From contig QPGO01000063.1 of NCBI GenBank assembly GCA_008632985.1, forward strand, positions 372,001 to 412,276: a stretch of 40,276 nt of DNA, in the 5' to 3' direction. The notes under the pieces were generated by a model. That model did not search any database. It saw only the letters and a program-made list of their open reading frames with translations, and was not told the origin of the DNA. This document shows, piece after piece, positions 176 through 19,209 of this stretch. The translations under genes and the position numbers were made by a program. How positions within the stretch are numbered: position 1 is the first letter of the stretch; every line of letters starts with the position of its first letter. The stretch comes from Psammoneis japonica. Its lineage: Eukaryota.

Positions 176-531
176 CAGTGTTTCCCGAATGTGCATTTTG
201 GTCGGACCAAATTGGCATTTTGGTCAAACCAAAATGCTTTTGTCGACCAAATTGCCAGACCGACCTGATCAATTTGGTTGACCAAATTGACATTTGCAAA
301 ATCTCGACCAAATTCATTTCATGCACATTTCCACACAAACAATGCCAACACAGCTTCTACGAAATTTGCATGGCATGTGTCGACATGCGCATTTTGCCAA
401 ATTTCCCCAACCAAAATGACATTTTTGGGAAACAAAATCATTTTGGTCGCGAGCATCAAATTTGTCAACAAACTTGGTCTGACCAAAATGCCAATTTGGT
501 CGACCAAAAAATGCACATTCGGGAAACACTG
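176..531. mobile_element. Non-autonomous DNA transposon (MITE-like) with ~55-bp terminal inverted repeats and CAGTG termini (hAT-like)
   Basis: Left end CAGTGTTTCCCGAATGTGCATTTTGGTCGGACCAAATTGGCATTTTGGTC is the reverse complement of the right end (...GACCAAAATGCCAATTTGGTCGACCAAAAAATGCACATTCGGGAAACACTG). Interior has many TTGGTC/GACCAA subterminal repeats. No target-site duplication is visible, so the superfamily is tentative. Confidence 0.75.
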
Positions 532-572
532 ATGGGGGGGGCAAGTGGCACATTGCCATTTTCTAAGAAAAA

Positions 573-756
573 TGAATGAATGCTGCCATGACAGCTGAGA
601 ATTGGGTGCAAGACAAGACAGAGTGTTGAACAGCATCAACAGGTTCTAGAATTGTGAGATGTTGCGCTGCTGGGGCCACTGAACAAGCGACAGTGGACCA
701 ATCGCCAACAGCACTTAAACTGCCTGCATCCGTGACAGTGCATCAGCATTTGTTCA
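573..756 (-). repeat. 3' LTR of the copia element (184 bp)
   Basis: Gap-free direct repeat of 7490-7673 with 17 mismatches by manual alignment. Begins TGAA, ends TTCA. Confidence 0.95.
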
Positions 757-766
757 GTCCCCTCGA
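757..766 (-). promoter_or_regulatory. Polypurine tract (plus-strand primer) of the copia element
   Basis: Minus strand reads ...CGAGGGGAC immediately before the 3' LTR. Confidence 0.6.
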
Positions 767-907
767 ACTGACGCCAGCTCCGCTCGGGTCAGATCGACAG
801 ACAAATGCAACCTGATGCTGCCCCATTCCAGGGCAGCAATTGCATTTTGGGGGTGGGAAAAAGCCGCACCTATGCGGCAAACCCGTTCGGTTTGTCCCCT
901 TTGGGGC

Positions 908-3900
908 TCACCACAGGATGTGACTTATGATTTCCCGGAGCTTCGGCCCAGGCAACAACTTGGTCAGTGCATCCGCTAGATTCGTGTGTCCATCTTCCCA
1001 AGCAATGCGCACTGTTCCAGCGGCTTGTGCCTCACGAGTCCTGTGATGGGCAATTGCATTGTGCTTCTTCTTCAAAGTGGACTCTGGTTTAGTTGAGTTC
1101 TTGAAGACAGCTTCATTGTCGCAGAAAACGTCAGTGGCCCCATCCATGGGGATTCGAGCATCCGAAGCTTGCAACGCAAGGCTTCAATTTGCTCCACTGC
1201 AGTCTTCACAGCCACGAACTCCGACCCAAAAGCAGAGGACTCTACGGTGTTCTGCCGCTTAGAGTGATGCAAGATGGGCACTTGTTGGATAAAGATCAGG
1301 AGACGGGTTCCAGTCCCAGGTGGGACTTTTTGTGACATTGGGCCCGCAGAATTCTGCGCGCGAGCTCCGCAGCAAAATTGTTGAGCAATGGACACATGAA
1401 TGATCGCCAACAGAAAAAGAGGCAATTTTGCGAACGCATCTCCTCCTCCACACTTGAAGTACATTCTTTGCGGCATGCCCGGGCAAACTCTTTAGACATT
1501 AAAGAACACACCCAGCGCATTTTTGTTGACGTGAGTGCAGATGACAGAAAGCCTTTGGCTTCGCAAAACAGGCAGTGTGGAACAATTTTTTATAATAGAA
1601 CACGTAGAAATGTACGTGCAAAACATGCGACGGATGATAAAAAATGATTGTGTCACAGTTCAGTGGCACGAGGTCCCACCTGGAGCTGGAACACGTCAGG
1701 ATCCCAGTGTGGGACCTGCGCGTCACACGGCATCCGGCGTGATCAGCATCGACAAAGCAAGCAGCAGTCACGTCATTCCTGCGTGCCTCCGGCACATTCG
1801 GCGGCATTGGTTCAGCCGCGCCAGGGTGACATTCTTCCCAATCACACTTGGTGAAGCGACTCTCATCAAAGACGGGCTCAGTGTTGTCGAACACCAGCGC
1901 AGGCAGACTTAGAATGAGCCTTCAAGTGTGCAAAGACATGGAGCACCTTGTCCAGGTGTCCAACTCGTGGTGCCGCCAAGTGGGAGGACATGAGCGAAGA
2001 CAGCAACAAAAATGTCCACTCGCCCCAGTTCAACCACCCACCGCAGCACACCGACAAGGCCTTGACAGCAGTTGGCCGTTTTGGTGTTCAACTCAGGTGA
2101 GCCGTCCAGTTCAGGCCCACGTCCCGAGCTCAAGGGTGTCGACACCTTCGTCGGAAGACGCCTGTCAGTTTTCTCAAGCTCCAATTCAATGTCAGCCAAT
2201 GCCCTTTTGACACAAAGGTCAGAGGACATGGCCCAGCATGTCTTGCCATCCGAGTCAGACAGCTGGCACTTTCCAACCTGGGCGCCTGAGCACTCTTCCG
2301 GCTCGCAGACGCTTCCGTCCTTGAGCGTGTGCCTGGAGCTCATGTGATCCATGACCTTCTGAGGTTCATGGGAGACGCACAACAAGTCGTCCACATGGAC
2401 AAGCACATGTTCCCAGTGCTTGAAGCCATCCGGCTCAACCGCAGCCCGCATCCAGACATCCGGGTCAGCCTTGCAAGACTCGAACCCAGCGTCCCGCAGA
2501 GCAGCTGCCACATGCTCCCTAAATCTTGCACCTGAAGATTTGAGACCATGCAAGGCACGGACAATGATCACCTGCCTTCCTTCGTTCTGCTTCCCAAATT
2601 CCAGGCCAGCAGTGGTGTGACATTTTTCCTCAGTGTGTGCCTTCAAGCAGGCATTCTGAACGTCAGCGCTCAGGACCTCCAGGTCATTCAGAGCTGCTGT
2701 GGTGAATGCCATCCTAACGCCATCATGCGACACCACGCTGGAACATGTCGATTCCTCAGGTGGATCGGTTTGATGGCCTCTGGCCACGAACCTCGCTTTA
2801 CGTTGGAGAGTGCTCTTGATGTCAAAGATCACATGACAGTCAATGTGTTTGCACCCGACCGGCACAGTGTCGTCATCGCGGAATTCGAACGCAGGCATGA
2901 CGTCACGCATTTCCTTCTCGATGGCTTTGAACCAGAAGTCGGTCCCCGTTCTGTCATCTATCTCCACAGCTTCCTCAACAGATTTCGGGAGTTCAATTCC
3001 GAACTTGTGCGCACATTTCCAGCAACGCGACTTGACTTTCTTCAGGATCCTCGACCTGCAACGCAAGACGTCTCGGACCCACCAGTTGAAGGCTGGCTCA
3101 CTGGCTGCTTTGTTCGCTGCAGCGTGCTCAGCAACCTCGACTGGGTTGGACTCCTTCAAATCCTTGAGAGGAACCCAGGATGTAGTCCCATCCTTCCATT
3201 TGACTTGCAGGTCCCAGCCTGCTGTCGTCCTCCTGGGAGCACGCCTGCCAGTCTTGGTCGTCATGTGCCCATCATCGGCCGTTACAGCACGGGCATCACG
3301 TCGGTGATCGACCATTTCCTTCATGATCTGGTGGGCATTCCCTTCAGAGTCGATCTGAGCGAATGGGTTCTCTGCAATTACGTTAGCAGCACAGGAATCA
3401 GTGGATCCATCAGGGAATTCCACGTCGTAAATCCTCGAGTCTAGGACAGGGTTGTCGTTCCTAGTGCCGACAGGAACCCCGTCGCCATCTCGCTTGTGTG
3501 CAATGACCCTAGCATGAGTCAGCTCGCCTCCTCGTGGTAACATGACTTGAGCTGTGAGACATTCATCTAGCCCTTCCGGGGCACGCTCATCAGCTTCCGG
3601 TTTGGAAGCGTTGGGTTCCACAGGTTCAACGGCATCATCCCATTCGTCCATGAAGTCATCAGGGAGTTCAGGGAAGTCAGCACTGGCATCCTTTTCCGGG
3701 ATGCTAAGCCGTTTGATCAAAGCTTGATCGACCGATGCAAGATCCGTCTGGATCGCCGGAGTTTTAAGGTCATCCTCCGGCATGGCCCATGCATCCTTCC
3801 AGATGATGGGTTTGCCTGATTCGGGCAAAATGATGAATGCCATGTCGTCAGTGCAGTTGTCAGCTACTCCGAGCCAACGGCCAATGCACTTCTTCTCGTG

Positions 3901-5521
3901 TGGGAATTCCGCCACAGGCATGCAGTGATGCACAGGTTGATGCCAATCAAAGAGAGAGAGGGAAGAGATGTCGGGTGCTGAACCTGTCACCTCCTCTTCT
4001 GGGACCCGTCCTCCCATGTCCGACACACTGGTCGCAATCATGCGTCGGATGTCACATGCCCATTTGGCGCCACAGGACCAAAGTCGCCTGTGAGCGCCAG
4101 TCCGGCATAGAGTCACACGGACTCTTTTCTTCAACTCACGAATGGATGCCTCGGCTGGGTTCTGCCAGGGGCTGTGTGGGGTGGACACCTCCTGGTGCAT
4201 CCTGCATTCCTTGCAGATCTCCTTGGTCTGGCCTTCCACCATTTCCGGTGCGCCATCCGACACAAGGACCTGCGGCACGCCAACGTCATGCACAAATGAC
4301 ATGACGGCGTCTGGGTAGGTCCTGTTTCCTCTTCCAAGGATGGAACCTGTCACACCCTCTTCCATTGGTAAATGCGCTTCCTCCTGTCTCGCCATGCATC
4401 GATTTAACCTTTGAAAACATTTTGTCGGAGTAGAGTCGTCCCTTGATCGCAGGGAACTTAAGCCAAGGGGCTTTCTTCCGGACTTTCCGTTCAGATGGTG
4501 TGCAGACATTACGGACCCCTGCCTGGGTCGTCACTCTAAGGGTGTTCTCAGCGGCCGTCAGGCCAATGTTCCACCTTTTAGAGAGCATCTCAGGCGTGAC
4601 AGTCGATGCACGACTCGAGGTCGACAGTGCATGCACCTGTTTCCGCTCGGCACAATCCGGGTGGACATCTGGGTCATGCCGGTCGTGTAGCCCGTCTCCC
4701 TCAGTGTCGTTGTGGGAGACATTTGCCTGAGCAACCAGGCGGTGATACAATGAATCATCGTCATTGGCATCCACAATGACATTGTCATCGTGACAGGACA
4801 TTTGGTGTGAATGAATGGAGGCGACACACCTGGTCGCATTCATCATCGTCAACCGTCCGTCCGACTTTGCTGATCCTTGGCGCACACTGGCACATGCATG
4901 CGCTTCCTCCTTTTGCGCCAGGGCATCAGCAGAAGGCTCCCATCTCAGGGGTGATGTGAGTTCCAGCCGAGGGACATTCTCCAGATCCTCCTTTGTTGGC
5001 TTGTGTGAATCAAAGACTGAAGCAACACCTCGCACTCGCAACGGCATCCTGATCTTCGAGTCAGGAAAGGAAATGGAGTGTGTGCTGGTCGGATCAAACT
5101 GGCGAGGGGTGTCGTGGACAGTCAGCCCATTCGCTCGCAGTTGGTTGGGGCACAGGAGGGTGTCAGTCATCTTGTCCCCAAAAAACACAGCCTCGTGGAC
5201 CAGCAGCAGGTGTGGTTGTCCATCAGTTGGATCAACCCACATGGCAGCAGCCGTGCAAATGGGAATGTTTTCCATTGGTGCATGCTCTTCAGAGCAGGGG
5301 TGTGCCACGACAGTTCTGTCGATGTCAGAGTGCATCACAAAATTGGACCCAACAGCACACGTGTCAGCGTGCGAGTCCAAATCAGTGGTGGCTTCGTCAT
5401 CTGAATTTCCAGCAGATGACAAAGAGACATGTGTGTCTTTTGAGAATCGCCCAGATGAACAAACAGTGCCAGCAGGTTTAGTGACATCTGGTTCCATGCC
5501 TTTCTGTGCTGGCGCAACCAT
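908..5521 (-). pseudogene. pol: Copia pol (protease, integrase, chromodomain-like segment, reverse transcriptase, RNase H), frameshifted and interrupted by a MITE
   Basis: Protease LDSHADT. Integrase VSDGA...PHSPWQNPAE. RT KARFVARGH, DVQNACL, ALHGLKSSG, HVDDLL. RNase H FVDADHAG...RRSHTG, SKRQNTVESSAFGSEF, CDNEAV, NLADALTK. Split over ORFs 4286-5521, 1909-4509, 1499-1894, 1072-1476 and 908-1174. Confidence 0.93.
1302..1697. mobile_element. 396-bp MITE inserted in the copia RNase H domain
   Basis: 25-bp TIRs (GACGGGTTCCAGTCCCAGGTGGGAC versus reverse complement GACGTGTTCCAGCTCCAGGTGGGAC) and AGGA duplicated at 1298-1301 and 1698-1701. Removing it restores RRSHTGILIFIQQ. Confidence 0.88.
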
Positions 5522-6943
5522 TCATTCCTCCTTCTGAGGTTTCGCATGCGCACTGCGACCAAACTGGGTGCCTGCATTGGCGGCAGGTTTGTCAGGCTCT
5601 TCGGAGTCTTTTGGTGCATCAGTGGGCTGAGCAGTGGGCTCGGCAACAGCTGCTTTCTTCACAGCGCGAGTTTCGGCATCGACCGACTCAGCCTCCGAGG
5701 ATGCAGCAGCAGCTTTGCATTTCTTTTCGGCCTTCTTGGCATCACTCAGCTTTTGGACTTGCTCTCGTTCGGGACCGTCAAGAGCACTCCACTCTTCAAT
5801 GGGACAATGGCCTGCCCGGATCCTGGGCTTGTCCTTCTTAGGTTGGTGCTTCCCACCAGGGTTGCTGCGCCGATTGTTGTGGCGTTGGATGGATGCAATC
5901 CCGCGAGTGTCGGCATTGCGGTTCTTGGCATTCTCGACCAGAGTTTTCATGTGCTGCTGGCATGCCTCAAAGTCCACTAGCTTCGCAGGGTTGCCGTCCA
6001 CCACGCTCTTGCCAGTTTCCAACCCAGGGTCAGAGACACCCTTCAGAAAGTCAGAGACCTTCTTGGTCTCGGCCACTGGTTCATCAAGCTCAGACAAGTC
6101 GTTGTGAGCCTTTTGATGGCGCTGGGTGCACTGGTCAAATGTAAAATCGACCCCGTCCGGTGCACTTCGCGGCAGCAATCTGTGCACAAGCACGGTTCTT
6201 TCGGGCAGTGGCGGCAGCCGATCCTTCCGCCTGCCTCTCAAGTGCGAAGAAGGCAGTGCGACCATCGCGACTGCGATTGGAAGGTTTGACAAAAGCCCAC
6301 CCGGGCCCCCCTGTCACTGACTTCTTCAAGAGGTCATGCAGGCGTTGCCTGTCCTGCGCATGCTGAGCTCCTGCAAGGTGGGTGGCAGCAGTGAGGTCCT
6401 CGTCAATGGCAGTGCAGGCAGCAGCCAACATCTCAGTGGTGGCTTCTTCATGTTCCCCAGTCAGGCAGACAAGGGGAACTCCGGAAACGGCGCTGCGGTG
6501 GTGACGCAGTTCGGTCTCCAGCAGCTCTTGAAAGGCAGGCCAGTCGTGTGGGTTCTTGAGCTCCACGGCCGTTTTGGCAGCCGATTCGTCGTCCGAGTCG
6601 GCGGACTTGAATTGCTCCAGTTCCGTCAGACGTGCCGTCCATGTTCCAATGACGTCGCCAGCGAAGAGAGCAGCGGTCGGCTCTTGATTCCGAGCTCTGT
6701 GGCAGTCAATCCATGCACGCAGTGCCTTGAGCTTGCGATTCGCCAGGCATGGAAAGCGGACTTGGGGGTTGGCGGCGGCATCCGCGCTCTTCACAACACC
6801 TCAGTCATGTCGGCAATTTCCATCAAAGGGACCTGTTCCAGGTCCTCGATCGCAGTGAAGCCTTGGCGGGCTGTGCAGGTGCGCGTCTGTGCATTGCATC
6901 CACAATGCGTAAGACAGGCGGTGAAGGCTGCGGCAGCGGCCAT
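5522..6943 (-). pseudogene. gag: Copia gag, frameshifted
   Basis: ATG at 6943, then ORFs 6135-6794 and 5522-6292 with CoDi gag-like segments (GVPLVCL, DGRTAFFAL, FTFDQC...HQKAHNDL, KKVSDFLKGVSDP). Lies between the PBS and the protease. Confidence 0.85.
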
Positions 6944-7475
6944 GGTGTGTCAATGGCTGTTCGCGTTTCGACGCGTGAGCATCCACTTGTGTGAGTGGAG
7001 GAAAGGGAGAAAAATGTGTGGTTCTCATGCCGATTTGGCGGTTTCTACTTAGCGAACCCGCGAGCAGGCGGTGTTACCCCTAAGCAACAATATCCAACAG
7101 ACATGTATCCACATGTACAGTGTCTAAACAATTCGATAACGTATTTTGATTAATGAAATGTATATGATCAAATAACAGACCTCAATACATAAATCATTAT
7201 GTTATCTATATGACGAATGTTTATATGTCTTAGCCAACATATTCCATCCACCTGATCAAACATTTCGTATACTAACGTCATGTCTAACGGATCACAGCTC
7301 TGGTCTCCAAGAGCATATCGTTCATATCCATGAATATTGATATATATAAAGGACTCAGCGATTACGCGAGCAACCATGGGACCAACATGGCGCTTGCCGC
7401 AAAAATCGATCGATCGCAACGATGCCGTCGTACCGTTCGCGATGCCCGTTCCAGGCGATGAACATCATAGTGTAT

Positions 7476-7486
7476 TGGCTCTGATA
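7476..7486 (-). promoter_or_regulatory. Primer-binding site, initiator tRNA-Met type
   Basis: Minus strand TATCAGAGCCA three bases inside the 5' LTR, matching the core of the canonical TGGTATCAGAGC PBS. Confidence 0.75.
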
Positions 7487-7489
7487 AAG

Positions 7490-7673
7490 TGAATAAATAC
7501 TACCATGATAGCTAAGAATTGGGTGTAAGACAAGACAGAGTGTTGAACAGCATCAACAGGTTCCAGAATTGTGAGATGTTACGCTGCTGGGGCCACTAAA
7601 TAAGCGACAGTGGACCAATCGCCAACAGCGCTTAAACTGCCTACATGCATGACAGCACATCAGCATTTATTCA
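7490..7673 (-). repeat. 5' LTR of the copia element (184 bp)
   Basis: Direct repeat of 573-756 with a perfect 9-bp terminal inverted repeat TGAATAAAT...ATTTATTCA. Confidence 0.95.
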
Positions 7674-8439
7674 AAAATTCACTGTTTGAGAATTCACAGA
7701 GATTTTTTGTCATTGATTGTCCCGTGTTTTCAAATTGTCCATTTCTGATTTGTGACAAGCACCTCCATGTAAAATGCAAGTGACAAGGCAAAACAACAAC
7801 AAACAAGAGCTTGCAGGCCCACATCATTCAATGTGAGTGTGCATTGTGAACTTGTCATGCTGCTGTTGCATGAGACAATGGCCAAATGACTGACTTGTTG
7901 CACAAGTTGGATGCCAAAAAACTCTGCAAATTTGGTGCACCACCGTGTGGAATTTCGCTGATGACCAGTCTGTCCTCTTGGAGCAAAAAAGGCCCTTCTT
8001 GCAACACTGGCAATGGTGTTCAGAGCCATGAGTCTGGCAAACAGAGGCACAACAGCACATCAGTTGATGATGGCAGAAGACAAAGAAAGAAGTGTTGGAG
8101 CATAAAAAAACTTGTCAATTTTGGAAACAAAATCAACTTTTGCAGAGACATCAAAATGCACCTGAGGCCATTCAAATCATCAAAAGTGAAGTGTTTGCAT
8201 TTCCTCTGCTGTTGCATCAACACACCAAGTCACACAACCTCTCACTCTCATCATCTCAACATGTCACACTACAACCTCTCACTCATGATCTTAACATGTC
8301 ACACACAGCTGTGCTCAGTGAAGCAGCTGCTTCTCTGCCATGTCCATGACAAAAGTGCCTGGCAGCTCTGACAAAGCAAACAAATTGGGTTTGAATCACA
8401 CAATGACTGGCTTTCAACCCAATTCAGTTAAAATGGATC

Positions 8440-11400
8440 CCAGTTGGCACAAGGACAATGGATGTGAAGTCTTGCTTTGACAGTGGCTCACCTCATGGTG
8501 GGGATCAGCCTGAGATGGAACAGCAGAGCAGGAGAGCCAATTGAGATGCTCTCAACTCTGGAGCAACTCCTGCGCTGCATCAGCACCAACTGTGGAGTGA
8601 CTGAAATGTCTTTTGGGTCCCAGATGCAGAGAAGGCACCAGGCATTGGACAAGGGAATGGTGTGGGGACCTTGAATCTGTTGTGATCAAGGAAAAAAGGA
8701 GCCAGGTTTGCATGTGCCCTGCAATGAGACAACACAGTGGAGTTTGCAGGGTTCTGTTTCATCAATGATTTCAACAGCTTACAATGCATTGGAGAGGGAG
8801 GAGATGAAGCAGTGGAGTGAGTTGTCTGCAGAGTGCAAGACACTGATGATCTTTGGGAGGCAGGCACAAGCACAACCAGCAGTGGAGTTGCACTGGACAA
8901 GAACCTGTGCTGCTGCCTGGTGGCTTTTAAGTGGAAGCAAGGCAACTGGTCCCACATGAAGCAAAAGGAATTGAATTGCAAGTTCTCTCTGTCAAGGACA
9001 TCAATGGGGACATGGGCATTTCACAAGGCAAATCAAGGCCCATGAAGCAGAGCATGCATTGGGCATCAGGCTTGCAGTTGACAGGAACAACCAGATGGAA
9101 GTGAAGCACCTCTGCCAGGTTGCTGAAGAGTGGGCCAAAAAGGCCACAACAGGACATCTCAACTGTCAGGATGTGTGGTCAAACCTGACCACCACAGCAA
9201 TGAAGACTCTTGAGCATCCGTTGCCAGCTCTGACAATCTCAAAAATTCAAGCCAAGTTCACCATGGCCCCAGTCCCAAAGAGGGGACTCCCAGAGCCAGT
9301 GTTTGCCAAAACATGACCAGAGATGTCATGTGTGACTCACCCACCTACCCAGGGCCTGTGCACAAACAACCTGTTTGCAACTGGCAAGTCCACAGCACAG
9401 ATCAGAGTCATCACAAAACACTTGCAACTGGGGACTGTCACAGGTGACCTGATCAATGCAAACCTTCAACAGCATCAGCTTGAGTTGCGACTCCTGGGGA
9501 CAGTTCTTTGACCACTGCTGCAAGGATTTCCCGCTCCTTGCAACTGAACTCATGGGTCAAGGATGTTTGGAAATTCCTGCCCAAGAACAGATGCATCTGG
9601 AAACTGACTTGCCCACCCTTGCCACACACCGTGGAATGTCAAGTTCCTGATTGAACAGCTCCACACAAAGTGGATTCAAGGGCAAGAAACTGACTTGAAT
9701 CAATCTGCATCAACTCTTCTTGCAGGTGAATGCAATCTCTGACATTGTCACAGGAAACAGGAGATGGGTGCTGCAAAACTGCTTTGATGGTGACCTGCCA
9801 ACACATGATCTGTGCCAATTGGAGTGCAACTGGCCAGTTCAAGGCAACCCTTGCACAATGATTGGAGGTGGTGGAAGAAGGAGGCCCTGGAAAGAGTTGC
9901 AGGTCCTCAGAGAACACAATGATCATTGGCCCTTTGCACAATAAATGGACAGACCAAGCAGTGCACAATTGGCCCCATTTCTTGTCCGCTGCAGATCAAC
10001 ACCAAGTCTGGGAGCAATCCCAGGATGGTGGATGGAGGTGTTGCACACTGGTGCCACAAAGTCCTGCTTGATCCAGTCAGCAAAGATGCCACTTTGGAGG
10101 TGAAATGGACAAGGCCCATGCCAAGCACAAGAGAGCAACCTGCCAGAGGAACAGACTCCACTTGACCTGCAAGAAGCAATTGACCAACTGTCTCAGACAT
10201 CAGGTGGTTGGTGGAGGATTGCAAGAATGATGATGACAGGCTGAAATTGCCAGGGCTGTGTTTGATGGGATGGCCATGGCAATCTCTGATGGCTCTTGTC
10301 AAGCAGGGAGGGGTGCATCTGCATGGACCATTTGAGGACTTTGGGGTGCCCACATGAGATCAAAGGGACAAACATGACAAGGGGCAACCCATCCAATGTG
10401 AACACACACCATGCAGAAATCAAAGGTCAACTTGCAATGTTCATGACAGTCAATGCAATTGGCCACCTCCACGGGGTTGCATGGGGCCATGTGACAATCC
10501 GTTGTGACAGCAATCAAGCATTAAAAATTTCCAACATTTTGGACTGCCATTGAAGGCCAATCACAAGCAATTTGACATTCTCTCAGCTGCTCACACCTGG
10601 GTCAAGAAATGCCTGGTAAAATGGGCAGCCATCAATGTGAAGGGGCATTTGGATGACCATGTGGCATGCAAGGACTTGGATCGTCCCTCCCAAATGAGTG
10701 TTGACATGGACACAAGAGCAAAGGAGTGCCTCTTGGAGATTGACTCCATCCCAGGGGACCAAAGAATGCAAGGCAAAATGTGGGTGCTGTGGATTGGAGA
10801 TTGAAGAGGGCAAGGTGGCATCAAACCTGACCAATGCCATCTGCCATGCTGTTGATGGGAAGAGGTTGCTCTGGCTCTGGGTCAGCAAGGGTGGGTTCTC
10901 CACACTGACTGTCAGGGAGACAGACTGGGACTCACAGGTGAAGGCATTGTCTGACTTCAAACCTTCTTGACATTGATGGGCAGCCAAACACATGTCTGGA
11001 CCATGAGGCATCAATGAGGTGTCATGTCATTGGGGAGAGTCTCTGGTGCAATCTTGCCCAAGGTGTCTGCACCCAGTGAAGGACTCCAACCAGCATGCGC
11101 TCACAAGCCAAGCAGAGAGCACTGTCAAGACGTGGCACAACTCCTTGCACAAACTCAGGGGGTGGATGCTCAAGTCAGGAACAAACCCCAAAACAGCCAA
11201 GACAATCATTCAATGTCTGTGAGAGTGGAAAGAAGGTTTGCCCATGCCACCCATTGAATCTCATGATGAAGGAATCCAAGCCATGGTGCTGGACTCACAA
11301 GACTCCATCACACTGGATGGAGGAGGATTCATCAAGGGTTGTGTTTCACTTGACAGGAGGTTCACCCAAGATGCACACTGCAGGAGGGCAAACTCCAGGA

Positions 11401-11800
11401 AACAAGGACAGCGTTGGGTGAGATCACTGACTGCCAAAGCACATGACATGTCCTGGGATCAGCAGGAACGTCAAAATGGCATCGCCCATCATCCTGCTGC
11501 TGCAATGATCACAGAAGCACAGGTCAAAAAAGCAAAAGAGAGGGTCTGCTGCAAGTTTGCTCTGGGTCCCCAACAACTGCTGCCAATGGACAAGCATTTG
11601 TTTGATGCTGCACTCAATGAGCTGCTTTGGAGCACACTTGAGTGCTTGAGAGCATGGCTTGACAATGTGGGCACAGCAAGAGATGCTCGCCGTCGACAGC
11701 AAGGTGAAAGCAACAATGCTGCAAGTGGCTGGGAATTCATGCTGTGCTGGCTGCGAGGTGCGAACACTGACATTTGATGGTGGGCGATGCCAAGGCTGTT
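8440..11800 (+). mobile_element. Decayed, 5'-truncated non-LTR retrotransposon with RT, RNase H and C-terminal Cys motif (diatom Ambal-like)
   Basis: RT remnants DVKSCFD (~8462), GIGQGNGVG (~8641), FCFIND for FVDD (~8750) and thumb region GIRLAVDRNN...KTLEHPLPALT. RNase H remnants HAEIKG, IRCDS, NVKGHLDD. CPRC...H knuckle at ~11054. Many stops and frameshifts; boundaries approximate. Confidence 0.8.
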
Positions 11801-12210
11801 TGGCAGTGCCACAAGCGGCAATCTGTGCTGAGTTGTTCACTCACATTTGTCACAAAATCTGTGAGAGAATCGTCTGCCACAAGAGAAGTAAAGAACAATC
11901 AACCTTTCTGGTGTTTCTACGATGGAAAATTATGAGCAATTCTAAAGACATCCAAGTCACCGAACAACAATAAATTGTTGTGACAGTTAAATCGTGACAT
12001 CTCTTGTCACTTCTGACACTCCATGGTAGACGGACAGACACCCAAATCGTTGGCGGAATTCCATTCCCGGTCAAAGGTATCGTATGATACGGTAGACTAC
12101 CGGTAGTATGGTACGGTAGGTGAGGTCAGAGCGAGCGACGAGCGAGGAGCGAGGAGTCTCCAGTCGAACACAACGAAGCAGCGGTGCTATTTAAAGCACT
12201 CTTAAAGGTA

Positions 12211-13203
12211 ATGCCATTTCGTACCAGATCAGCTCCCCTTCAGGTCAGATTGTCAATGATTCATCGGTGCATTTTACTGCTCCTTGTACTGTTGCTCCTG
12301 ACTTCCCTGTTGATGGTGAGCACACTCACAGCTGCCAATGATAACACGGAAATGTTTAATGCTCCACCTGGGGCTCCTATGATGAAAACGACGAACAAAT
12401 CGGAAATCAAAACAATTGCGATTCTAGGAGAACGTAACTCCGGCACGACATGGATGCTCAAAGAGATACAGCGATGTTATGGCGAGAACTTTGAGATTCT
12501 AAACCATCTGACGCGACATAAGCATGCCTTTCAATACGATACCAGAAAACCTCGTAATCGAACGCTAGTTGTGTCCGAATTTCGAGACCCGTACCAATAT
12601 GTTTTGGCAATGATTGAAAAGCCTCGCAAAGCTATTGCGCATCGACAAATGGATTGGAAAACCTTTGTGACGACACAGTGGACCACGAAACGCGAAGAAT
12701 CAGACAAGAAGTATGCCAACAGCACTGACCCCGTCTGTCAAGATCGTTACAAGTATGCGGAAGTCGTTCCGTGCGAACATGACAATGTACGACCAAACGA
12801 ATATTTGACCAACAAACGACTGCGGTACAACGAGAAAGAGCCAACTCGCGAGGAACCAATTCAAGATATCCCACTTTATGAAATGAAACGTGACGGATCG
12901 GGCGAGCCATTTGCCAGCATTGTCGATTTGCGTGCTGAAAAGATTCGCAATCACGCTGTAGAGGTTAAAGATTTCTCCTTTGTTGAAGACGTCGTTATCG
13001 TAAGATACGAGGATTTGCTACAGGAAGGGACGGCACCCTTGCACCAACAAATATCAGAGATTGTAGGGACCAAGCCTCACTGCGATGCGACGCCGCCACA
13101 GAAGGATCGGCCGCAACGTCAAATCAAGGATGATTTCAAAAATTGGATGGACGAGCACGTTGATTGGAATGCTGAAGCTCTTATCGGATATAAGAAGTAT
13201 TAG
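12211..13203 (+). CDS. Secreted or membrane-anchored P-loop sulfotransferase-like protein (GERNSGT family)
   Basis: Intact ORF with first ATG at 12211. N-terminal hydrophobic segment, ILGERNSGT motif, RDPY and VRYEDL motifs typical of sulfotransferase-like folds. Normal TpA/CpG and Tyr content. Confidence 0.8.
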   Translation: MPFRTRSAPLQVRLSMIHRCILLLLVLLLLTSLLMVSTLTAANDNTEMFNAPPGAPMMKTTNKSEIKTIAILGERNSGTTWMLKEIQRCYGENFEILNHLTRHKHAFQYDTRKPRNRTLVVSEFRDPYQYVLAMIEKPRKAIAHRQMDWKTFVTTQWTTKREESDKKYANSTDPVCQDRYKYAEVVPCEHDNVRPNEYLTNKRLRYNEKEPTREEPIQDIPLYEMKRDGSGEPFASIVDLRAEKIRNHAVEVKDFSFVEDVVIVRYEDLLQEGTAPLHQQISEIVGTKPHCDATPPQKDRPQRQIKDDFKNWMDEHVDWNAEALIGYKKY

Positions 13204-14548
13204 TAGCATATTTTTTTACAACTGACACTATCGCATCGATTCGCCACATTTTTGACTCATTCTAGAGATTCGCCGGCGAAGTCACTCAGACAACAGTTCT
13301 TCACGCCGACAGAATGCAACCCGGACAGCATTTCCCGTATTGTTAGATCCACCATATCCTTATACGCAGGCGTACGGCGGATCACCTTTTTTTTCGCGTA
13401 ACGGAGACTGTCCACGTGTCGTTCGGCCTCCTCTGTCAGGAGCTTCCGACACTCATTATTAGAAGCATTGAATGTCGTCTTTGCTGCTATTGCCTCCCAG
13501 TCAAAGCTCCGTTCCAGAATATTAACATAAAAAAGGTTTTCATTGAAAGCTTCATCTTGAAGCAAATGAGAGGTTGAATCATGCTTCGCAAGTTTTTTGT
13601 CGGCCCAAAGCGCCATGTTTCGAAGCAACTCCACGGCCTTACCAACACCTTCGTGAAGTCGTCGTTGGTAAGCAGTTGAATTACAAAAGATAGTACTGAA
13701 TTGGCGATCCAGATCCAAATGATGAAGATTTCCATCTTTGTCCATCAGCACTTGAAAGTCATGAGTGAATAATGGCACTGCCTTGATCAGCTCCAGTGTT
13801 GTTTTGGCATCGCGCTCAAGGTTACGGGCAAATTTCTGTACTTCCGTGGGGAAATACTCCAGTTTACGCTGAACGACATCCCAACTTGATCCTTTCACCA
13901 ATAAATGTGGATCCGGTGCAACTTTGACTCTTTGGATCATCACATTCTTACCAGTGATGTACTTTTCTTCGAGTTGCTTTCTTTTGTTTGCGTTGCGTAG
14001 GTTTGAGCTCAGCAGAGCGGCGGAAGAGTCTGTGACATTCACATAGCTGGGAGGCCCCAAAAGAAAATGGCTTATTCCAAACTCATTCGTGAGATACTGT
14101 GATAACTTCCATCCTTCTTCCATCTGAACAGTTCGCTCGTTTCCAACGTTGGAGACGATCAAGTACCCTAGGTGTTTGTCGGCCTTGTCATAAAAGAAGC
14201 ATTTGACAGCACCACAAAGTCCACCAATATTCATGTTCAGTCGATTCCAGTCAAAAATATCTTCAGAAATGTTAGGCATAGAAATGTTCAAATCACTCTC
14301 TTTTCTTTCAGGTGTTGAAAAATCCAAATCGTTCTCTTCTCTTTGCTGTTGTTGTCCTAAAACACTTGCCTGCAAATGCATCTCTGTCAGAGAAACAAAT
14401 GCGAAACTGAAGAATAGCACTAACTGGAGGATGAAAAGTTTTGGTTTGCTTGCTTTGTCTTTGTACAAATGCATAGTAGGAAGCGACTTTATGCTCTTGT
14501 TTTTTTTTTTTTTGTTCTGAACAAGACAGAAGGAATCATCTAATGATG
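13097..14548. repeat. Segmental duplication copy A (3' end of the GERNSGT gene plus most of the convergent gene)
   Basis: Collinear, highly similar direct copy at ~21413-22837. Confidence 0.92.
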
Positions 14549-14597
14549 ATCGCTCAATAGCTTGTGGTTTTTTCGGCGGATGATGCATGATGGTCAT
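13257..14597 (-). CDS. Hypothetical type II membrane protein, 446 aa (GxCGxxKCFF...DFQVLMDKDGNLHHLDLDR; possibly an atypical kinase-like fold)
   Basis: Intact long ORF with a basic N-terminus, one hydrophobic helix and normal composition. Paralog at 21561-22830. The fold guess is inference only. Confidence 0.8.
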   Translation of the reverse strand: MTIMHHPPKKPQAIERSSLDDSFCLVQNKKKKNKSIKSLPTMHLYKDKASKPKLFILQLVLFFSFAFVSLTEMHLQASVLGQQQQREENDLDFSTPERKESDLNISMPNISEDIFDWNRLNMNIGGLCGAVKCFFYDKADKHLGYLIVSNVGNERTVQMEEGWKLSQYLTNEFGISHFLLGPPSYVNVTDSSAALLSSNLRNANKRKQLEEKYITGKNVMIQRVKVAPDPHLLVKGSSWDVVQRKLEYFPTEVQKFARNLERDAKTTLELIKAVPLFTHDFQVLMDKDGNLHHLDLDRQFSTIFCNSTAYQRRLHEGVGKAVELLRNMALWADKKLAKHDSTSHLLQDEAFNENLFYVNILERSFDWEAIAAKTTFNASNNECRKLLTEEAERHVDSLRYAKKKVIRRTPAYKDMVDLTIREMLSGLHSVGVKNCCLSDFAGESLE

Positions 14598-14699: not shown

Positions 14700-17600
14700 C
14701 ATGGAGGAGCCAAGTCTGAAGTCTCAGGGAGAGCAAGTCTGGGACAGTCAGAAGAGAGCCTTGCATTGTGTGCCCATAATTTTAAAAGAACAGCAGATTT
14801 TAAAAGATGCCCTTAGCACAGAGGCCACAGGAGCCATCAAACATGGCATCAAACCTTCCCAAACAAGAATGTGTGTTTTGTCACTCGAGAGATCAACAAG
14901 GAGGGATTTGGGAATGACCTCACAGACCTTGCAACAGCCCATCAATCACTTCCTTTGTCATTCTGCAACCTGCCACATGAACCACTCAGAGTGCAAAATT
15001 CCATCAAATTTCCAATTGGTGCAATTTTCCAACATTGGCTCAAACACAAAAGAAGTGCTTTTCTCTTTGTCACGACCTCGTTGTTGGCTGCCACCCCAGC
15101 CTCCTTTCCAGCCAGCCACTCCTTTTTTGCCATGAATCTCTTGGCAAGGTTTTGGAGTTTTCAACCATTGCAACAATTTTCAGAAATTTTTTGGCACCAA
15201 AAATTCCCACTCTGGCTGCCTCAAGAGCCACCTGTCCCAGGGGGTCGAAGCCAGATTCAGAACATCCAGGGGACCTGGGTGCACCTCCAAAACTTGCACT
15301 GGGTGCATCAACAAAACCATGCATGATGGAACAAATGCCAGTGAAAAGACCATGAAGAGCCATCACACCAGGGGCAGAAGATGGAAGATCACAAAAAGAA
15401 AGGGGTCTGAGGGCATCGATGTCGCACTTGAGTTTCTGAGCAAGGGGGGGGGGGGACTTTGTTGGGCAAGAAGCACTTCCAGGATCATGTGCAGTTGTCA
15501 TGGGCAGGTTCGGGGAGACAAGTGGGGTCATGCCAGCAGCATTTGACAATTTTGAGTGCCCGCCAGCACTGGGGGAGGGGCTCAAAGACCGAAAAGTGGC
15601 CAGCCCCAATTGATGGATGTCTGAGATGGAGAGTGTGCTCCCTTGTGTCAGACAGACTGGCTCATGTGGGCTGGAGTGATCCAATGATGATCTCTCCTTT
15701 CTCACTTTCTCTCAGCTCTGGTGCATGGCTGCATCTGTCCCAGACATCAACAGATCCTCATCCCAACACCAGCAGATTGCAAGATTGCTTGTGAGCAGCA
15801 GTTGTGTGCTGTTTGCATTTCTTGACACAAGCACGCTCCCCCTTGACATGTTGTCATCATGACCACCACAGAACACACGCCAGTGCTCTGCACAAGAATT
15901 TGATTTTTGTTCTTCCCATAAAACCATGGTCAACAAGAATGCAAACACAGCCAATGAGACTGAGATCAAGCCAATGCTGGTTAAACCCAACCCACACAAT
16001 CACTCACCTGATGCCCATCAACACCTGAGTGCCCTTCACTCTGATGAGACACAACTGTTCCTGAAGATCTTCTGGACTGATTTGCTCTTCCTCCAAGCCT
16101 CAAGAGCAATGCTGTTGCATGTGTCCATCATGAGATCATTCAGGGTCTTGTCATTCTCTGAGCTGTGCCAGCTGAGGATCTCACAAGGATTGGGCTGGTC
16201 ATGGACAGTGCTCCTCTTTTTGTGGTGGCTGCCCCATTTAAGTTCTCCAATTCATCTGAACCATGCCCATCTTTAGAAGGCCAAGATGCAGGCTGTCTTG
16301 CAGGATTGGGATGCTGTGACAACACATGTTGAGACCCTCTGTCTCCACTTTTGTCCTGGTTTTGAGTGTCGTGACCATTGGAAGAACACACATCAGATGG
16401 TCCATGCCCCAAGTCCTCTCATTCTTGGAGTTCTTCATCTCAACTGGCTGCCAGTTTAGATCCTGCTCCTGGAGATTTTGTGCCAAGGTTTCAGCTGCCC
16501 ATTTGCCTGGCCCAAAAGAGTGTGGGCAAACTGTGGCCAATGCATTGGAGAGTGCTCCACCACCTCCCAAAAATGCTGCCTCAACCACACCTCCATCTGC
16601 TGTCCTGTGTGCCTTCAACCCCAAAAGACTTCCTTTGGATGTGTTGACTCACTGCCAATGCAACGAAGACAGCAAGATGATTTTGGGAAAGTTTTTGGCT
16701 CCCTGCAAGCCATGCAACTGCTTGTGTTGTGTGAAGATGGTGATGACTCTTCTTTTTTGTTGCACAATGAGTGGGATGCCAAGTCTTTGCTGTGGGATCC
16801 CCATGCTTGCAATTGCACTTCTCTGCAAGGAATGTTTGCATGTGGTGCATTGCTGTGACCCAGCAGGCATGGCTTGTGGCATCCACATGTGTGCATGTTT
16901 CATCAAAGATGGAGACAATTGTGATGATTTTCACTTTGAATGTGAGGGCCTCTTGCACAGATGAAGCTGACTTTTTGACAGCACACTCAGAATGTTGGGG
17001 GCCATGCTTCTGACTGTGTTGGTGTCAACAACAAACCTGTTGGATTGCTGTCTGTGATCACTTTTCTTGTGCAGTCCATGGTGTTGCACGGGTTTCCAAG
17101 GCCAGTCCTCTCAAATGGCTTTGCTGATTTTTGGATCAACATTGGCCACATTGCTGTGACAAACACATGTTTGTGGATCAGGTGAGAATCATGCACACAA
17201 AAGTCCAAAAGTTTGTGACCTTTCTTGTCAAGAATTCCACTGTGACTTGTGCCCTTCTGGTGTTGGCACATCCAGTCAATGTGGGCCTTTTTAATGCTCA
17301 CATTTGACTGTTGAAAATGTGGTTTGTGCACTTTTGATTGTGTTGCCAACCTTCCAATTCAATTCTGGACCTTTGTTCTGTCACTGCCTGTGAACCAACA
17401 ATGCCACTCCATCAAAAGATCAAGATGCTTCTCCTTGCTGTTGCTGCTGGCAAGGTTGAGGATGCAGCTGCATCAAGGTCATTTGGATGTTGCACATGGG
17501 CAAAGCAGCCATCCAACTGACCTGTTCAATTCACAACAAACTCCAAGAAGGGTGTCTTCTGTGGTTGTCCTTCTAATGCCTTGAATGACATGCTCTGGTG

Positions 17601-19200
17601 GGATCTAGAGATTGACAAGGTCAAGACAGCCAATCAAGTGCAATGTGATGAGGCCATGTTGTAGTTGTGGCATCGCGTTTACATTTTCAGATGGGAGCTG
17701 GTGTCGTGTGGAGAACATTCTTCACACGAAATGAAATTCCTGCCATGGAAAGGGATGCACAACTTCTGACCAAATGGTTTCGCGCAACAGATGATGCAAG
17801 TGTTTTCGGAATGTGCTCAGCACGGCCATGCAACACAGCCTGAATGAAACTGTCTGCCCTCATGATGTTGACATGTTGTGACTGTTCACAGCATTCCGTT
17901 TCATGATGAAGACAATGTGGATCACTCTTCCTGTGCCACACACAAACACTGCATTGTTTGTTGGCAGAGTTTGCCATTACACTCCCGGGTTGGGACACAG
18001 AAAAAAATTGCTGCTGGGGTTCTTTGTCGATCATTCATGCCAAGGCTGATGGTTGTCAGCACAGAAGATTGGAGTGTCCAGGACAAGGATCAGATGTCAT
18101 TGAGTTTGAAGGAAGATGGCTCTTTTTTTCAGTGACAACAAGCAACCACCAGTGAAGGGAGTGCAGGAGGAACCAGAACTCTAGAACATGGGGGAGCAGG
18201 AAGCTTGGGTTCGGCAGATCAACCAGCATGTTCAGAGTGCCAACTTTTTCACTGTGGAGTTGCTCACTTTGAACAACAAATGTGCAAATGTTTTTAAGCA
18301 GGGTTTTCCTTGGGTTGAAACTGCACACACATTGGAGCAGAAACAAAATGAGTCCACAACCACCTCTGCAGGTGTGTCAAAAAATCTGTGAACTCACATT
18401 TTTGCCACCCTCATGTCATGCCTCAGTGATGCACCTGTGCAAATTTACAGAGCTGACCTTTTTTGTCAGCCCCTTCATGGAGAGCACCAGTTGTTGAACA
18501 TTTCACCACAGTCAGTGTCACTTGTGGTGCAGGAGCCCCAAGGTGATTGCCAGAAAGTTGTGTCAGGCACGGCGGGCAGGAAAAACTTTGGGGCAAATCA
18601 AGCAGGGTTGGCAGCCACCATTCACTGCACTGCTCCACACCACAAAAATTTCATCACAACCTGTGGGGACAGCAAAGAATGGGGCAGAAATCCATGGTCT
18701 CCATTCTGGCCCAACAGGGAGGAGCAACCAGAGCCAACAACACCCTTGATCAACATGGGCCCACAGCTTTTCCACAAGCAAGTCCCAGTCATGCCAACAG
18801 ATTTGCTCCACCCATTTGGGGACAATGCATGGAGTGGGGGACAAAGTGCAGAACAACGGGGCACCATCCTTTGCTTCCTTGTGCCTTGTGCCAAAGCAGG
18901 GAGGCATCATTTCCAAAATGTCTGACTTTCATCTGCCAGTTCCCACCAAGAAGCCTGCACAATCCAGGGAAAGACATTGTTCAAAGTGGTTGAGAAGTTG
19001 CCAGAAAATGTTGCAAGCTGTGAAGGACAGATTTCTTTGAATGACCCAGCAGAAATTGTGGCCAAATGACTTTCCTGTGTGGCATTTTCCAACTCAGCAC
19101 CAGTGCCCCCAACTGCCCACAGGGAGAGGTGTCAATTGTGGCCTTGTCTGCCTCAGTTGCTGTCAGCACATCACTTGCGCTGCTTGGCTCCCAAAGCCAA
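14700..19200. other. Heavily mutated repeat-derived block of unidentified origin
   Basis: Nearly devoid of TpA and CpG, with many short overlapping ORFs and no motif I can assign confidently. Confidence 0.5.
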
Positions 19201-19209
19201 CTAAAATGA

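What the first reader, a model, noticed from the sequence alone, without database searches (positions are those of the whole stretch)
573..7673. LTR pair shows the direction and post-insertion timing of the TpA mutations
LTRs are identical at insertion. Manual gap-free alignment of 573-756 with 7490-7673 gives 17 mismatches: 12 TA versus TG or CA (11 lost in the left LTR, 1 in the right), 2 CG versus CA, one TG versus CA pair (2 mismatches) and 1 transversion. Example: GAATAAATACTACCATGATAGCTAAGAA versus GAATGAATGCTGCCATGACAGCTGAGAA. The TA-bearing copy keeps the perfect terminal inverted repeat TGAATAAAT/ATTTATTCA, so TA is ancestral. The change therefore happened in chromosomal DNA after integration, not by editing of the RNA intermediate. 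LTR-divergence dating would greatly overestimate the element's age.
Basis: seen in the sequence. Interest (0 to 1): 0.9.

Follow-up and report, generated by a model that had tools for sequence, protein, structure and literature searches.

The report
One-sided TpA loss between retrotransposon LTRs
A copia-type retrotransposon in what looks like a diatom genome has lost almost all its TA dinucleotides (to TG or CA) in its body and one LTR but not in the other LTR, pointing to an undescribed TA-destroying mutation process that acts on integrated DNA.

Summary
LTRs 573-756 and 7490-7673 align gap-free with 17 mismatches. At 11 sites the right LTR has TA and the left has TG or CA; 1 site is the reverse.

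The element is a Ty1/copia retrotransposon on the minus strand, so the TA-rich right LTR is the 5' LTR. The direction TA>TG/CA has independent support. Of 24 codons where at least 40 of 50 homologues have Tyr, the element keeps 1 and has His at 14, Cys at 8 and Arg at 1. Of 81 changed conserved codons, 40 are single TA losses and 0 are TA gains. Losses fall on both strands and are interspersed, which argues against RNA or one-strand cDNA editing.

The body and 3' LTR have TA o/e 0.13-0.17. The 5' LTR and leader have 0.86-1.04.

The full family-consensus test was not possible, because no genome is held. Partial read-laying data mostly agree with TA being ancestral, but at four sites in the spared 5' part the family majority carries CA/TG.

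Integration-stage editing, gene conversion and assembly chimerism are not excluded. Why the 5' end is spared is unexplained. Eight literature searches found no description of such a process.

The parts
569..572 (.). Left copy of a possible 4-bp target-site duplication (AAAA)
   Evidence: AAAA also lies at 7674-7677. It is low-complexity, so the evidence is weak. A 4-bp duplication is reported for the diatom copia element Blackbeard (PMC2806351, passage seen).
573..756 (-).
   Evidence: It has TG or CA at 11 sites where the 5' LTR has TA.
757..765 (-). Polypurine-tract-like sequence next to the 3' LTR (sense ...GAGGGGAC)
   Evidence: Read directly; no functional test.
911..5482 (-). Pol region (protease, integrase, reverse transcriptase, RNase H) with frameshifts
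   Evidence: RVT_2 hit. tblastn with 50 copia homologues is colinear. Tyr codons have become His or Cys. The YVDD motif reads HVDD.
1307..1692 (.). Nested 386-bp MITE-like insertion with roughly 20-bp terminal inverted repeats, interrupting RNase H
   Evidence: There is a gap in the homologue alignment and the repeats are visible. Summed word depth is 47,000-127,000 against 5,000-13,000 for the host element. TA o/e is 0.34 over the 1304-1700 segment that holds it.
1701..7035 (-). TA-depleted body: 34 TA in 5,335 bp, TA o/e 0.13, CG o/e 0.73
7036..7476 (-). 5' leader that keeps its TA (segment 7036-7489: 40 TA, TA o/e 1.04, CG o/e 1.44)
   Evidence: Its family-level word depth matches the body's, so it belongs to the family.
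7477..7488 (-). Primer-binding-site-like sequence (sense TTTATCAGAGCC)
   Evidence: The resemblance to the initiator-Met tRNA primer site of copia elements is recalled, not tested. No tRNA gene lies in the window.
7490..7673 (-).
   Evidence: At 7564 it carries a private TA>CA change relative to about 96% of family depth.
7674..7677 (.). Right copy of the possible 4-bp target-site duplication (AAAA)

Best explanation
The element is one Ty1/copia LTR retrotransposon on the minus strand of what is probably a diatom chromosome. Its two LTRs started alike and rich in TA.

After integration, a TpA-specific transition process (T:A to C:G, read as TA>CA or TA>TG depending on which strand was hit) removed about 85-95% of TA dinucleotides. 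It acted in one contiguous block: the body, the 3' LTR and probably the left flank. It stopped sharply near 7036, so the 454-bp leader and the 5' LTR were almost untouched.

The same process, together with slower CpG decay, would explain the long TA-free and CG-free blocks that make up most of the window, while gene-bearing islands stay normal.

Shown: the direction of change in the body, that both strands were hit, the block structure, and the LTR asymmetry.

Inferred: that the LTR sites changed in the same direction and episode as the body; that this happened in chromosomal double-stranded DNA; and that it is an enzyme-driven, block-targeted process. Candidate chemistries are adenine deamination in a 5'-TA context or a thymine modification. 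Targeting might follow silenced or methylated chromatin or repeats.
For: 1. Polarity in the body. Across 523 codons where at least 40 of 50 homologues agree, 81 are changed.
- 40 of the 81 are explained by a single TA>CA/TG change.
- 8 are explained by CpG loss.
- 0 are explained by TA gain and 0 by CG gain.
- Of 24 Tyr columns, 1 is kept, 14 are His, 8 are Cys and 1 is Arg.
- An earlier alignment of the 873-aa ORF gave 20 Tyr columns with 2 kept, 10 His, 7 Cys and 1 Arg.
- The catalytic YVDD motif reads HVDD.

2. The extent of loss matches. The 3' LTR keeps 2 of 13-14 inferred TA sites. The body has TA o/e 0.13. The 5' LTR has 0.86 and the leader 1.04.

3. The TA-rich state is the normal one. 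The 80 related copia loci from metagenomes have TA o/e 0.38-0.91, and none is depleted like the body. The TA-bearing 6501-8000 stretch has TA/AT 0.52-0.54 and (CA+TG)/(AC+GT) 1.38-1.52, so it shows no RIP signature.

4. Both strands were hit. At Tyr and Ile(ATA) sites there are 14 sense T>C and 11 sense A>G changes, interspersed (runs test P=0.37). The LTR shows 8 versus 3.

5. Family data (contexts).
- At 7564 about 96% of family depth has T (TCTAG, the left-LTR state).
- None of the 11 right-LTR TA sites is among the 28 rows from run X1 with alternative share of at least 0.958. The right LTR's TA is therefore not a private gain.
- One diverged family contig from run X2 (19 differences over 7342-7558) shows no listed difference at the five TA sites 7494-7514.

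6. The spared block is not younger. It has 5 near-fixed private differences in 638 bp, against 22 in 6,279 bp of body.

7. Depletion is by block, not by coding status. Non-ORF parts of the gene islands keep TA o/e 0.52-0.89, and block borders are sharp.
Against: - No full set of family LTRs could be obtained. No genome is held, and three collection scans for an LTR pattern found nothing.
- At four TA sites of the spared block, the depth-weighted family majority carries CA/TG: 7081 and 7317 at 96% or more, 7468 at 84% and 7473 at 60%. A naive family consensus would read those four TAs as gains.
- My reading that the read-laying table is ranked by share is an inference from its 40 shown rows; 1,425 rows were hidden.
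- Depth falls to about 1,800 at 7505, against 27,000-41,000 in the LTR centre. Contigs unlike the right LTR may have been clipped there, which weakens point 5 for five of the 11 sites.
- Nothing explains why the 5' LTR and leader were spared.
- The pattern of a spared 5' LTR and PBS-proximal leader with a hit body and 3' LTR is also what single-strand exposure during reverse transcription predicts.
- The body's depletion could have been inherited from a non-autonomous parent copy.
- The target-site duplication is only AAAA.
- The contigs that support the sequence may come from the same data as the assembly.
Confidence: 0.6

Rival explanations
1. The 5' LTR and leader have a different history from the rest. 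Either ectopic gene conversion or recombination with a less mutated copy replaced 7036-7673 after the element was mutated, or the assembler joined reads from different copies of this very high-copy family. TA would still be ancestral, but the LTR pair would say nothing about timing.
For: - The switch near 7036 is very sharp, and the other border coincides with the LTR end, where homology to other copies stops.
- The family is very abundant: 9,642 contig pieces were laid, and LTR depth is roughly 680 times that of the single-copy junction contig.
- No listed contig spans the whole stretch.
Against: - The spared block carries at least as many private near-fixed substitutions as the body: 5 in 638 bp against 22 in 6,279 bp. 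It is therefore not a fresh consensus-like replacement.
- Apart from TA- and CG-class sites, the LTRs differ at only 1 of 184 positions.
- A 375-bp contig joins the last 58 bp of the right LTR to the unique flank with 2 differences. It may come from the same data as the assembly.
Confidence: 0.15
2. The body's TA depletion was inherited. This copy descends from a non-autonomous lineage that is mobilised in trans. Its coding body had already decayed, while selection for mobility kept the LTR, primer site and leader intact. Only the 3' LTR changes are post-insertion.
For: - No body site where this copy has CA/TG shows the family at 95.8% or more for the TA-type letter, so other copies share the derived letters.
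- The spared parts are exactly the cis-acting parts of the element.
Against: - It does not explain why the 3' LTR lost 11-12 TA while the 5' LTR lost 1-2.
- Independent recurrent loss in many copies predicts the same mixed family shares.
- The 3' LTR's loss (about 85%) matches the body's, which suggests one episode.
Confidence: 0.1
3. Editing took place during reverse transcription, before integration. A nucleic-acid deaminase attacked exposed single-stranded cDNA. The minus-strand U3-R-U5 that becomes the 3' LTR, and the body, stay single-stranded longest. The PBS-proximal leader and the 5' LTR (copied from plus-strand strong-stop DNA) are covered first. This mirrors the APOBEC3 gradients on retroviral cDNA, which I cite from memory.
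For: The topology fits. The 3' LTR and body are hit, and the 5' LTR plus about 450 bp next to the primer site are spared.
Against: - One-strand editing predicts one change type on the sense strand. The observed counts are 14 T>C and 11 A>G, interspersed, in the body, and 8 versus 3 in the LTR.
- The border is a step, not a gradient.
- The flanks and the long blocks without recognisable retroelement homology are even more depleted.
Confidence: 0.08
4. Classical RIP-like C>T at CpA created the TA dinucleotides in the right LTR and leader, and TG/CA is ancestral there. This is the refuting case named by the first reader.
For: - At 7081 and 7317 (96% or more of family depth), 7468 (84%) and 7473 (60%), the family majority has CA/TG where this copy has TA.
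- Diatoms carry DNMT4 enzymes related to the fungal RIP factor RID; their function is unknown (PMC9998398, passages seen).
Against: - It would require two opposite processes in one element, because the adjoining body demonstrably lost TA (40 losses, 0 gains).
- The TA-bearing block has ordinary, non-RIP dinucleotide indices, similar to the 80 relatives.
- None of the 11 LTR sites shows a family share of 95.8% or more for TG/CA, whereas true private changes do.
- The TA inside the primer-site-like TATCAGAGCC is probably functional; this rests on recalled knowledge.
Confidence: 0.04

Closest known systems
Fungal repeat-induced point mutation (RIP)
   Same: It is a near-saturating, dinucleotide-specific transition hypermutation confined to blocks of mobile or repeated DNA. 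The blocks have sharp borders, both strands are hit, neighbouring genes are left intact, and LTR-based ages are inflated.
   Different: - The direction is the mirror image. RIP makes TpA from CpA, whereas here TpA is destroyed to CpA/TpG.
- RIP indices are not met.
- No stop codons are created; Tyr becomes His or Cys.
- The host is probably a diatom, not a fungus.
- Dependence on homology could not be tested.
CpG decay by deamination of 5-methylcytosine in silenced DNA
   Same: A self-complementary pyrimidine-purine dinucleotide is lost to TG/CA, in the same blocks. The old blocks have CG o/e 0.08-0.18. In the element, 8 conserved codons show CpG loss.
   Different: It cannot remove TpA. In this element TA loss is far ahead of CpG loss: TA o/e is 0.13 and CG o/e 0.73.
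APOBEC3-type editing of retroelement cDNA (recalled knowledge; PMC4866542 seen only in a search listing, and my term search of it found no passages)
   Same: It is a hypermutation of LTR retroelements that can spare the PBS-proximal 5' region.
   Different: APOBEC3 makes C>U on one strand only, seen as G>A on the sense strand. Here the change is T:A>C:G at TpA on both strands.
ADAR-type A-to-I hyper-editing with a 5' U preference (recalled knowledge)
   Same: A>G in a UA/TA context.
   Different: It acts on RNA, so it cannot make the two LTRs of one element differ and cannot give sense-strand T>C. It is not known outside animals (recalled).
Thymine hydroxylation to 5-hydroxymethyluracil or base J, reported preferentially at TpA in dinoflagellate DNA (recalled knowledge, not checked in a paper here)
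   Same: It is a modification aimed at the T of TpA, and could in principle raise T>C changes there.
   Different: I have no evidence of this modification in diatoms or in this genome, and it has no known block-wise mutational outcome.

Membership tests
Ty1/copia LTR retrotransposon (diatom CoDi-like) | Copia-type reverse transcriptase (RVT_2) within a polyprotein colinear with copia polyproteins | tested here: met
   PF07727 scored E=1.2e-10. There were 406 homologues, the best at E=0 and 61% identity, almost all carrying PF07727. tblastn is colinear over sense positions 2192-6763. Named relatives are diatom proteins.
Ty1/copia LTR retrotransposon (diatom CoDi-like) | Direct LTRs ending TG...CA, with a primer-binding site after the 5' LTR, a polypurine tract before the 3' LTR, and a target-site duplication | tested here: met
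   The LTRs are 184 bp, begin TG and end CA. A TATCAGAGCC-type site and a GAGGGGAC tract are present. The duplication is only AAAA, which is weak.
Ty1/copia LTR retrotransposon (diatom CoDi-like) | Intact, potentially active coding capacity | tested here: not met
   There are frameshifts, YVDD reads HVDD, 23 of 24 conserved Tyr are changed, and a MITE is nested in RNase H. It is a dead copy.
Fungal RIP | C:G>T:A transitions, mostly CpA>TpA | tested here: not met
   The polarity is opposite: 40 TA losses and 0 TA gains among 81 changed conserved codons.
Fungal RIP | Dinucleotide indices TpA/ApT above about 0.89 and (CpA+TpG)/(ApC+GpT) below about 1.03 (thresholds recalled) | tested here: not met
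   Depleted blocks give 0.02-0.2 and 1.5-2.3. The TA-bearing 6501-8000 stretch gives 0.52-0.54 and 1.38-1.52.
Fungal RIP | Dependence on sequence duplication and on a RID-type methyltransferase during the sexual phase | not testable with these tools
   No genome is held. The only background available is that diatom DNMT4 is related to RID (PMC9998398).
Editing of single-stranded retroelement cDNA (APOBEC-like) | Changes confined to one strand | tested here: not met
   Sense-strand T>C 14 and A>G 11, interspersed; in the LTR, 8 versus 3.
RNA-level A-to-I editing of the retroelement transcript | Both LTRs inherit the same edits | tested here: not met
   The LTRs differ at 11+1 TA-class sites.

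The most novel reading that the evidence does not exclude
This diatom has a block-targeted genome-defence mutator that is the chemical mirror image of fungal RIP. It converts TpA to TpG/CpA on both strands of integrated double-stranded DNA, for example by adenine deamination in a 5'-TA context or through a thymine modification. It works in near-saturating bursts on transposon blocks. It changes Tyr codons and removes TA-containing signals without creating stop codons. Genes and some promoter-proximal DNA are spared. Together with CpG decay, it produces intergenic DNA almost free of both TA and CG.
Probability: 0.35. Interest if true: 0.92.

Novelty: new variant of a known kind. Interest (0 to 1): 0.8.

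Why it matters
- If real, this is a directed A:T>G:C hypermutation of mobile DNA. I know of no described counterpart. Eight full-text searches and passages from three diatom papers turned up none.
- It would add a second chemistry to repeat-directed mutagenesis, in a major algal lineage.
- It would imply a DNA-acting, TA-specific enzyme of possible interest for base editing.
- It would invalidate LTR-divergence dating and Kimura-distance repeat landscapes in such genomes: here 9.2% raw divergence against about 0.5% at other sites.
- It would mislead gene finders, because TA-free DNA lacks TAA and TAG stops and is full of long spurious ORFs.

Tried and rejected
**Family data that could not be obtained**
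- Whole genome: none is held.
- Family LTRs from public collections: one degenerate LTR pattern found 0 matches in metagenome contigs, genome contigs and viral contigs.
- Notes from earlier scans: nothing by place, sequence or words.

**Searches that gave no useful result**
- Same-family proteins: searches of near-length and shorter proteins gave at best 61-63% identity, so no same-family copies were found.
- LTR-pair controls from the 80 metagenome loci: the terminal repeats found in 25 of those long enough to test (5,500 bp or more) were mostly 80-150 bp exact overlaps, typical of collapsed assemblies, so I did not use them.
- The TATCAGAGC primer-site motif in relatives: 1 hit in 80 loci, uninformative.
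- Rfam and tRNA search on the window: nothing.
- Pfam on 67 ORFs of 110 aa or more outside the element: only two weak sub-threshold hits. tblastn of 50 copia homologues: 0 of 290 hits outside the element. The origin of the old TA-free blocks is therefore unknown.
- PMC4866542: no passages for my terms.

**Ideas considered and set aside**
- The 13097-14578 / 21413-22859 repeat as a second LTR pair: rejected, because it has no LTR termini and carries long ORFs. Its mismatches are symmetric: 9 versus 11 TA-class and 8 versus 6 CG-class, out of 109.
- Base-calling artefact at modified bases: set aside but not excluded.
  - Contigs of run X1 reproduce the sequence: 1,370 of 9,642 pieces are at least 99% alike, and a junction contig covers the TA-free flank with 2 differences in 285 bp.
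  - Three Tyr-free copia fragments from other assemblies show His or Cys at Tyr columns.
  - However, the platform of X1 is unknown, and X1 may be the source data for the assembly.

**Limits of the read-laying run**
- Runs X2 and X3 held next to none of the stretch.
- Parts of the stretch with low cover in the read-laying are not used as evidence of absence.
Full report
**1. The observation**

Window 573-756 and 7490-7673 are two 184-bp direct repeats. They align without gaps and have 17 mismatches (also found).
- 11 sites where the right copy has TA and the left has TG (8 sites) or CA (3 sites);
- 1 site with the reverse pattern (647/7564);
- 2 sites with CG versus CA, one in each direction;
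- 1 adjacent TG versus CA pair;
- 1 transversion.

The left copy has 2 TA and the right has 12. By my own arithmetic, an 11-to-1 split has a two-sided binomial P of about 0.006.

**2. What the element is**

- The long ORFs lie on the minus strand. The 873-aa ORF carries RVT_2.
- It has hundreds of copia-type homologues, the best at 61% identity. Named relatives are diatom proteins from Cyclotella, Cylindrotheca and Fragilaria.
- A neighbouring alpha-SNAP gene also has only diatoms among its named relatives. The host is therefore probably a diatom.
- The right LTR is the 5' LTR. It is followed, in sense orientation, by TTTATCAGAGCC (primer-site-like) and an AT-rich leader.
- The left LTR is the 3' LTR, preceded by ...GAGGGGAC. 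AAAA flanks both ends.
- tblastn with 50 homologues shows a colinear but frameshifted pol. A 386-bp MITE-like insertion at 1307-1692, with roughly 20-bp inverted ends, interrupts RNase H.

**3. The surroundings change how the finding reads**

The window is a mosaic.
- Long blocks have TA o/e 0.04-0.08 and CG o/e 0.08-0.18, with CA and TG near 1.5-2.5.
- Between them lie islands with TA 0.5-0.6 and CG 0.9-1.1. Borders are sharp, within tens to a few hundred bases.
- One island holds the alpha-SNAP gene. Its non-ORF parts also keep TA (0.52-0.89), so retention is regional and not due to selection on coding sequence.

Within the finding:

| Segment | TA o/e | CG o/e |
|---|---|---|
| Left flank | 0.08 | 0.53 |
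| 3' LTR | 0.17 | 0.37 |
| Body | 0.13 | 0.73 |
| Leader | 1.04 | 1.44 |
| 5' LTR | 0.86 | 0.46 |
| Right flank | 0.07 | 0.09 |

The unusual state is therefore TA depletion. The TA-bearing 5' end looks like ordinary DNA and like the 80 related copia loci from metagenomes, which have TA o/e 0.38-0.91 with none lower.

**4. Direction of change**

The protein gives an outgroup that the LTRs lack.
- In an alignment with 50 homologues, 20 columns have Tyr in at least 80% of them. The element has Tyr at 2, His at 10, Cys at 7 and Arg at 1. Tyr makes up 0.2% of its residues, against 3.6% in the homologues.
- Over the whole pol, mapped by tblastn, 523 codons are conserved in at least 40 of 50 homologues, and 81 of them are changed. 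Of the 81:
  - 40 are explained by one TA>CA/TG change;
  - 8 by CpG loss;
  - 0 by TA gain and 0 by CG gain;
  - 4 by other transitions and 16 by transversions;
  - 13 need two or more changes.
- Of 24 Tyr columns in that set, 1 is kept, 14 are His, 8 are Cys and 1 is Arg. The catalytic YVDD reads HVDD.

The body therefore lost TA. The 3' LTR, contiguous with it, shows the same degree of loss: it keeps 2 of 13-14 inferred sites.

A RIP-like gain in the 5' LTR would require two opposite processes in one element. It would also require a TA-rich block without a RIP signature; its TA/AT is 0.52-0.54 and (CA+TG)/(AC+GT) is 1.38-1.52.

**5.

No genome is held. A degenerate LTR pattern found nothing in three collections. 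One coded run, X1, holds half of the stretch's words.

Laying its contigs on 757-7900 at 80% likeness placed 9,642 pieces. The family is very abundant: LTR-centre word depth is 27,000-41,000, against about 60 for the single-copy junction contig.

Only 40 of 1,465 variable places were printed. These are 12 rows with share 1 in run X2 and 28 X1 rows with shares of 0.958-1.0. I read this as a ranking by share, which is an inference.

Results on that reading:
- In the LTR, only 7564 is near-unanimously different. The family has T, giving TCTAG, which is the left-LTR state. The right LTR therefore lost that TA.
- None of the 11 right-LTR TA sites has a family alternative at 95.8% or more, so those TAs are not private gains.
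- A diverged X2 contig (19 differences over 7342-7558) lists no difference at the five TA sites 7494-7514.

Results against my reading:
- At 7081 and 7317 (96% or more), 7468 (84%) and 7473 (60%), the family majority has CA/TG where this copy has TA.
- Depth drops to about 1,800 at 7505, so contigs unlike the right LTR may have been clipped there.

In a family under pervasive TA loss, a depth-weighted majority is not the ancestor.

**6. Timing and mechanism**

The LTR pair alone does not exclude editing of cDNA. The minus-strand U3-R-U5 that becomes the 3' LTR is re-exposed after plus-strand strong-stop transfer. The PBS-proximal leader is covered first, which is the topology seen here (established reverse-transcription scheme, from memory).

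Against cDNA editing, the losses fall on both strands and are interspersed:
- 14 sense T>C and 11 A>G at Tyr and Ile(ATA) codons, runs test P=0.37;
- 8 versus 3 in the LTR.

In addition, the border near 7036 is a step, and the flanks and other blocks are more depleted still.

Replacement of the 5' end by a fresher copy is weakly disfavoured. The spared block has 5 near-fixed private differences in 638 bp, against 22 in 6,279 bp of body.

The nested MITE has TA o/e 0.34 and no near-fixed private TA loss. This hints that the loss came as an episode before the MITE inserted.

CpG loss in the body is modest: o/e 0.73, with 8 conserved codons affected. TA loss is therefore much faster than CpG decay.

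My best reading, at 0.6 confidence, is a TpA-specific T:A>C:G process acting on integrated double-stranded DNA in discrete blocks. I cannot say why it stopped before the leader and 5' LTR. Possibilities are an unmethylated promoter-proximal state (the leader keeps CG o/e 1.44), or a homology- or domain-defined block that also includes the left flank.

**7. Comparison with known systems**

- The pattern works like RIP: it is block-wise, dinucleotide-specific and near-saturating. It fails RIP's defining direction and its indices.
- It is not CpG decay, although it co-occurs with it.
- It is not APOBEC-like or ADAR-like, on chemistry and strand grounds.
- Eight literature searches found no description. 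The only related point is that diatom DNMT4 enzymes, of unknown function, are related to the fungal RIP factor RID (PMC9998398, passages seen).
- Three short copia fragments from other assemblies (P0192, P0232, P0184) have no Tyr. At Tyr-consensus columns they have His or Cys at 3 of 4, 4 of 6 and 3 of 4. The signature is therefore not confined to this assembly.

**8. Verdict**

- The direction is well supported by independent evidence.
- Post-integration timing is the best reading but is not proven.
- The terminal-inverted-repeat argument is weak.
- The dating warning is correct: 17/184 raw, against 1/184 outside the TA and CG classes.
- The sparing of the 5' LTR and leader is new and unexplained.

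Noticed in passing
window 7674-11750, 14800-21350, 23300-29100, 33201-39300: These long blocks have TA o/e 0.04-0.08 and CG o/e 0.08-0.18, with CA/TG in excess. They contain many long spurious ORFs, because TAA and TAG are absent, and have no Pfam or copia homology. They alternate with islands of normal composition across sharp borders.
   Followed up: partly
window 1307-1692: A 386-bp MITE-like insertion with roughly 20-bp terminal inverted repeats sits inside the RNase H region. Its word depth is 47,000-127,000, much higher than the host element's. It keeps 9 TA, all in its right half.
   Followed up: partly
window 13097-14578 and 21413-22859: Two segments of about 1.45-1.48 kb are 90% identical and lie 8.3 kb apart, both inside normal-composition islands. 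They carry long minus-strand ORFs (447 and 336 aa) with no Pfam hit and have no LTR termini. Their 109 mismatches are symmetric for the TA and CG classes.
   Followed up: partly
window 30405-31680 (minus strand): An alpha-SNAP gene lies in two adjacent ORFs. Its best unnamed relative is 83% identical, and all named relatives are diatoms.
   Followed up: yes
window 23667-24547: Three tandem copies of a unit of about 292 bp lie inside a TA-free block. The copies differ mainly by transitions, including 4-5 CG versus TG/CA sites.
   Followed up: no
proteins P0192, P0232, P0184: These short copia fragments from other public assemblies have no Tyr at all. At Tyr-consensus columns they have His or Cys at 3 of 4, 4 of 6 and 3 of 4. 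This is the same signature in other data sets. The exact contig of P0192 was not among the 80 loci fetched.
   Followed up: partly
loci L055, L012, L003: These related copia loci from metagenomes have CG o/e 0.01-0.10 but TA o/e only mildly low (0.38-0.47). They show CpG decay without the TA loss seen in the window.
   Followed up: no
window 400-520: The left flank holds several short palindromic units of the form CCAAAATG..CATTTTGG.
   Followed up: no
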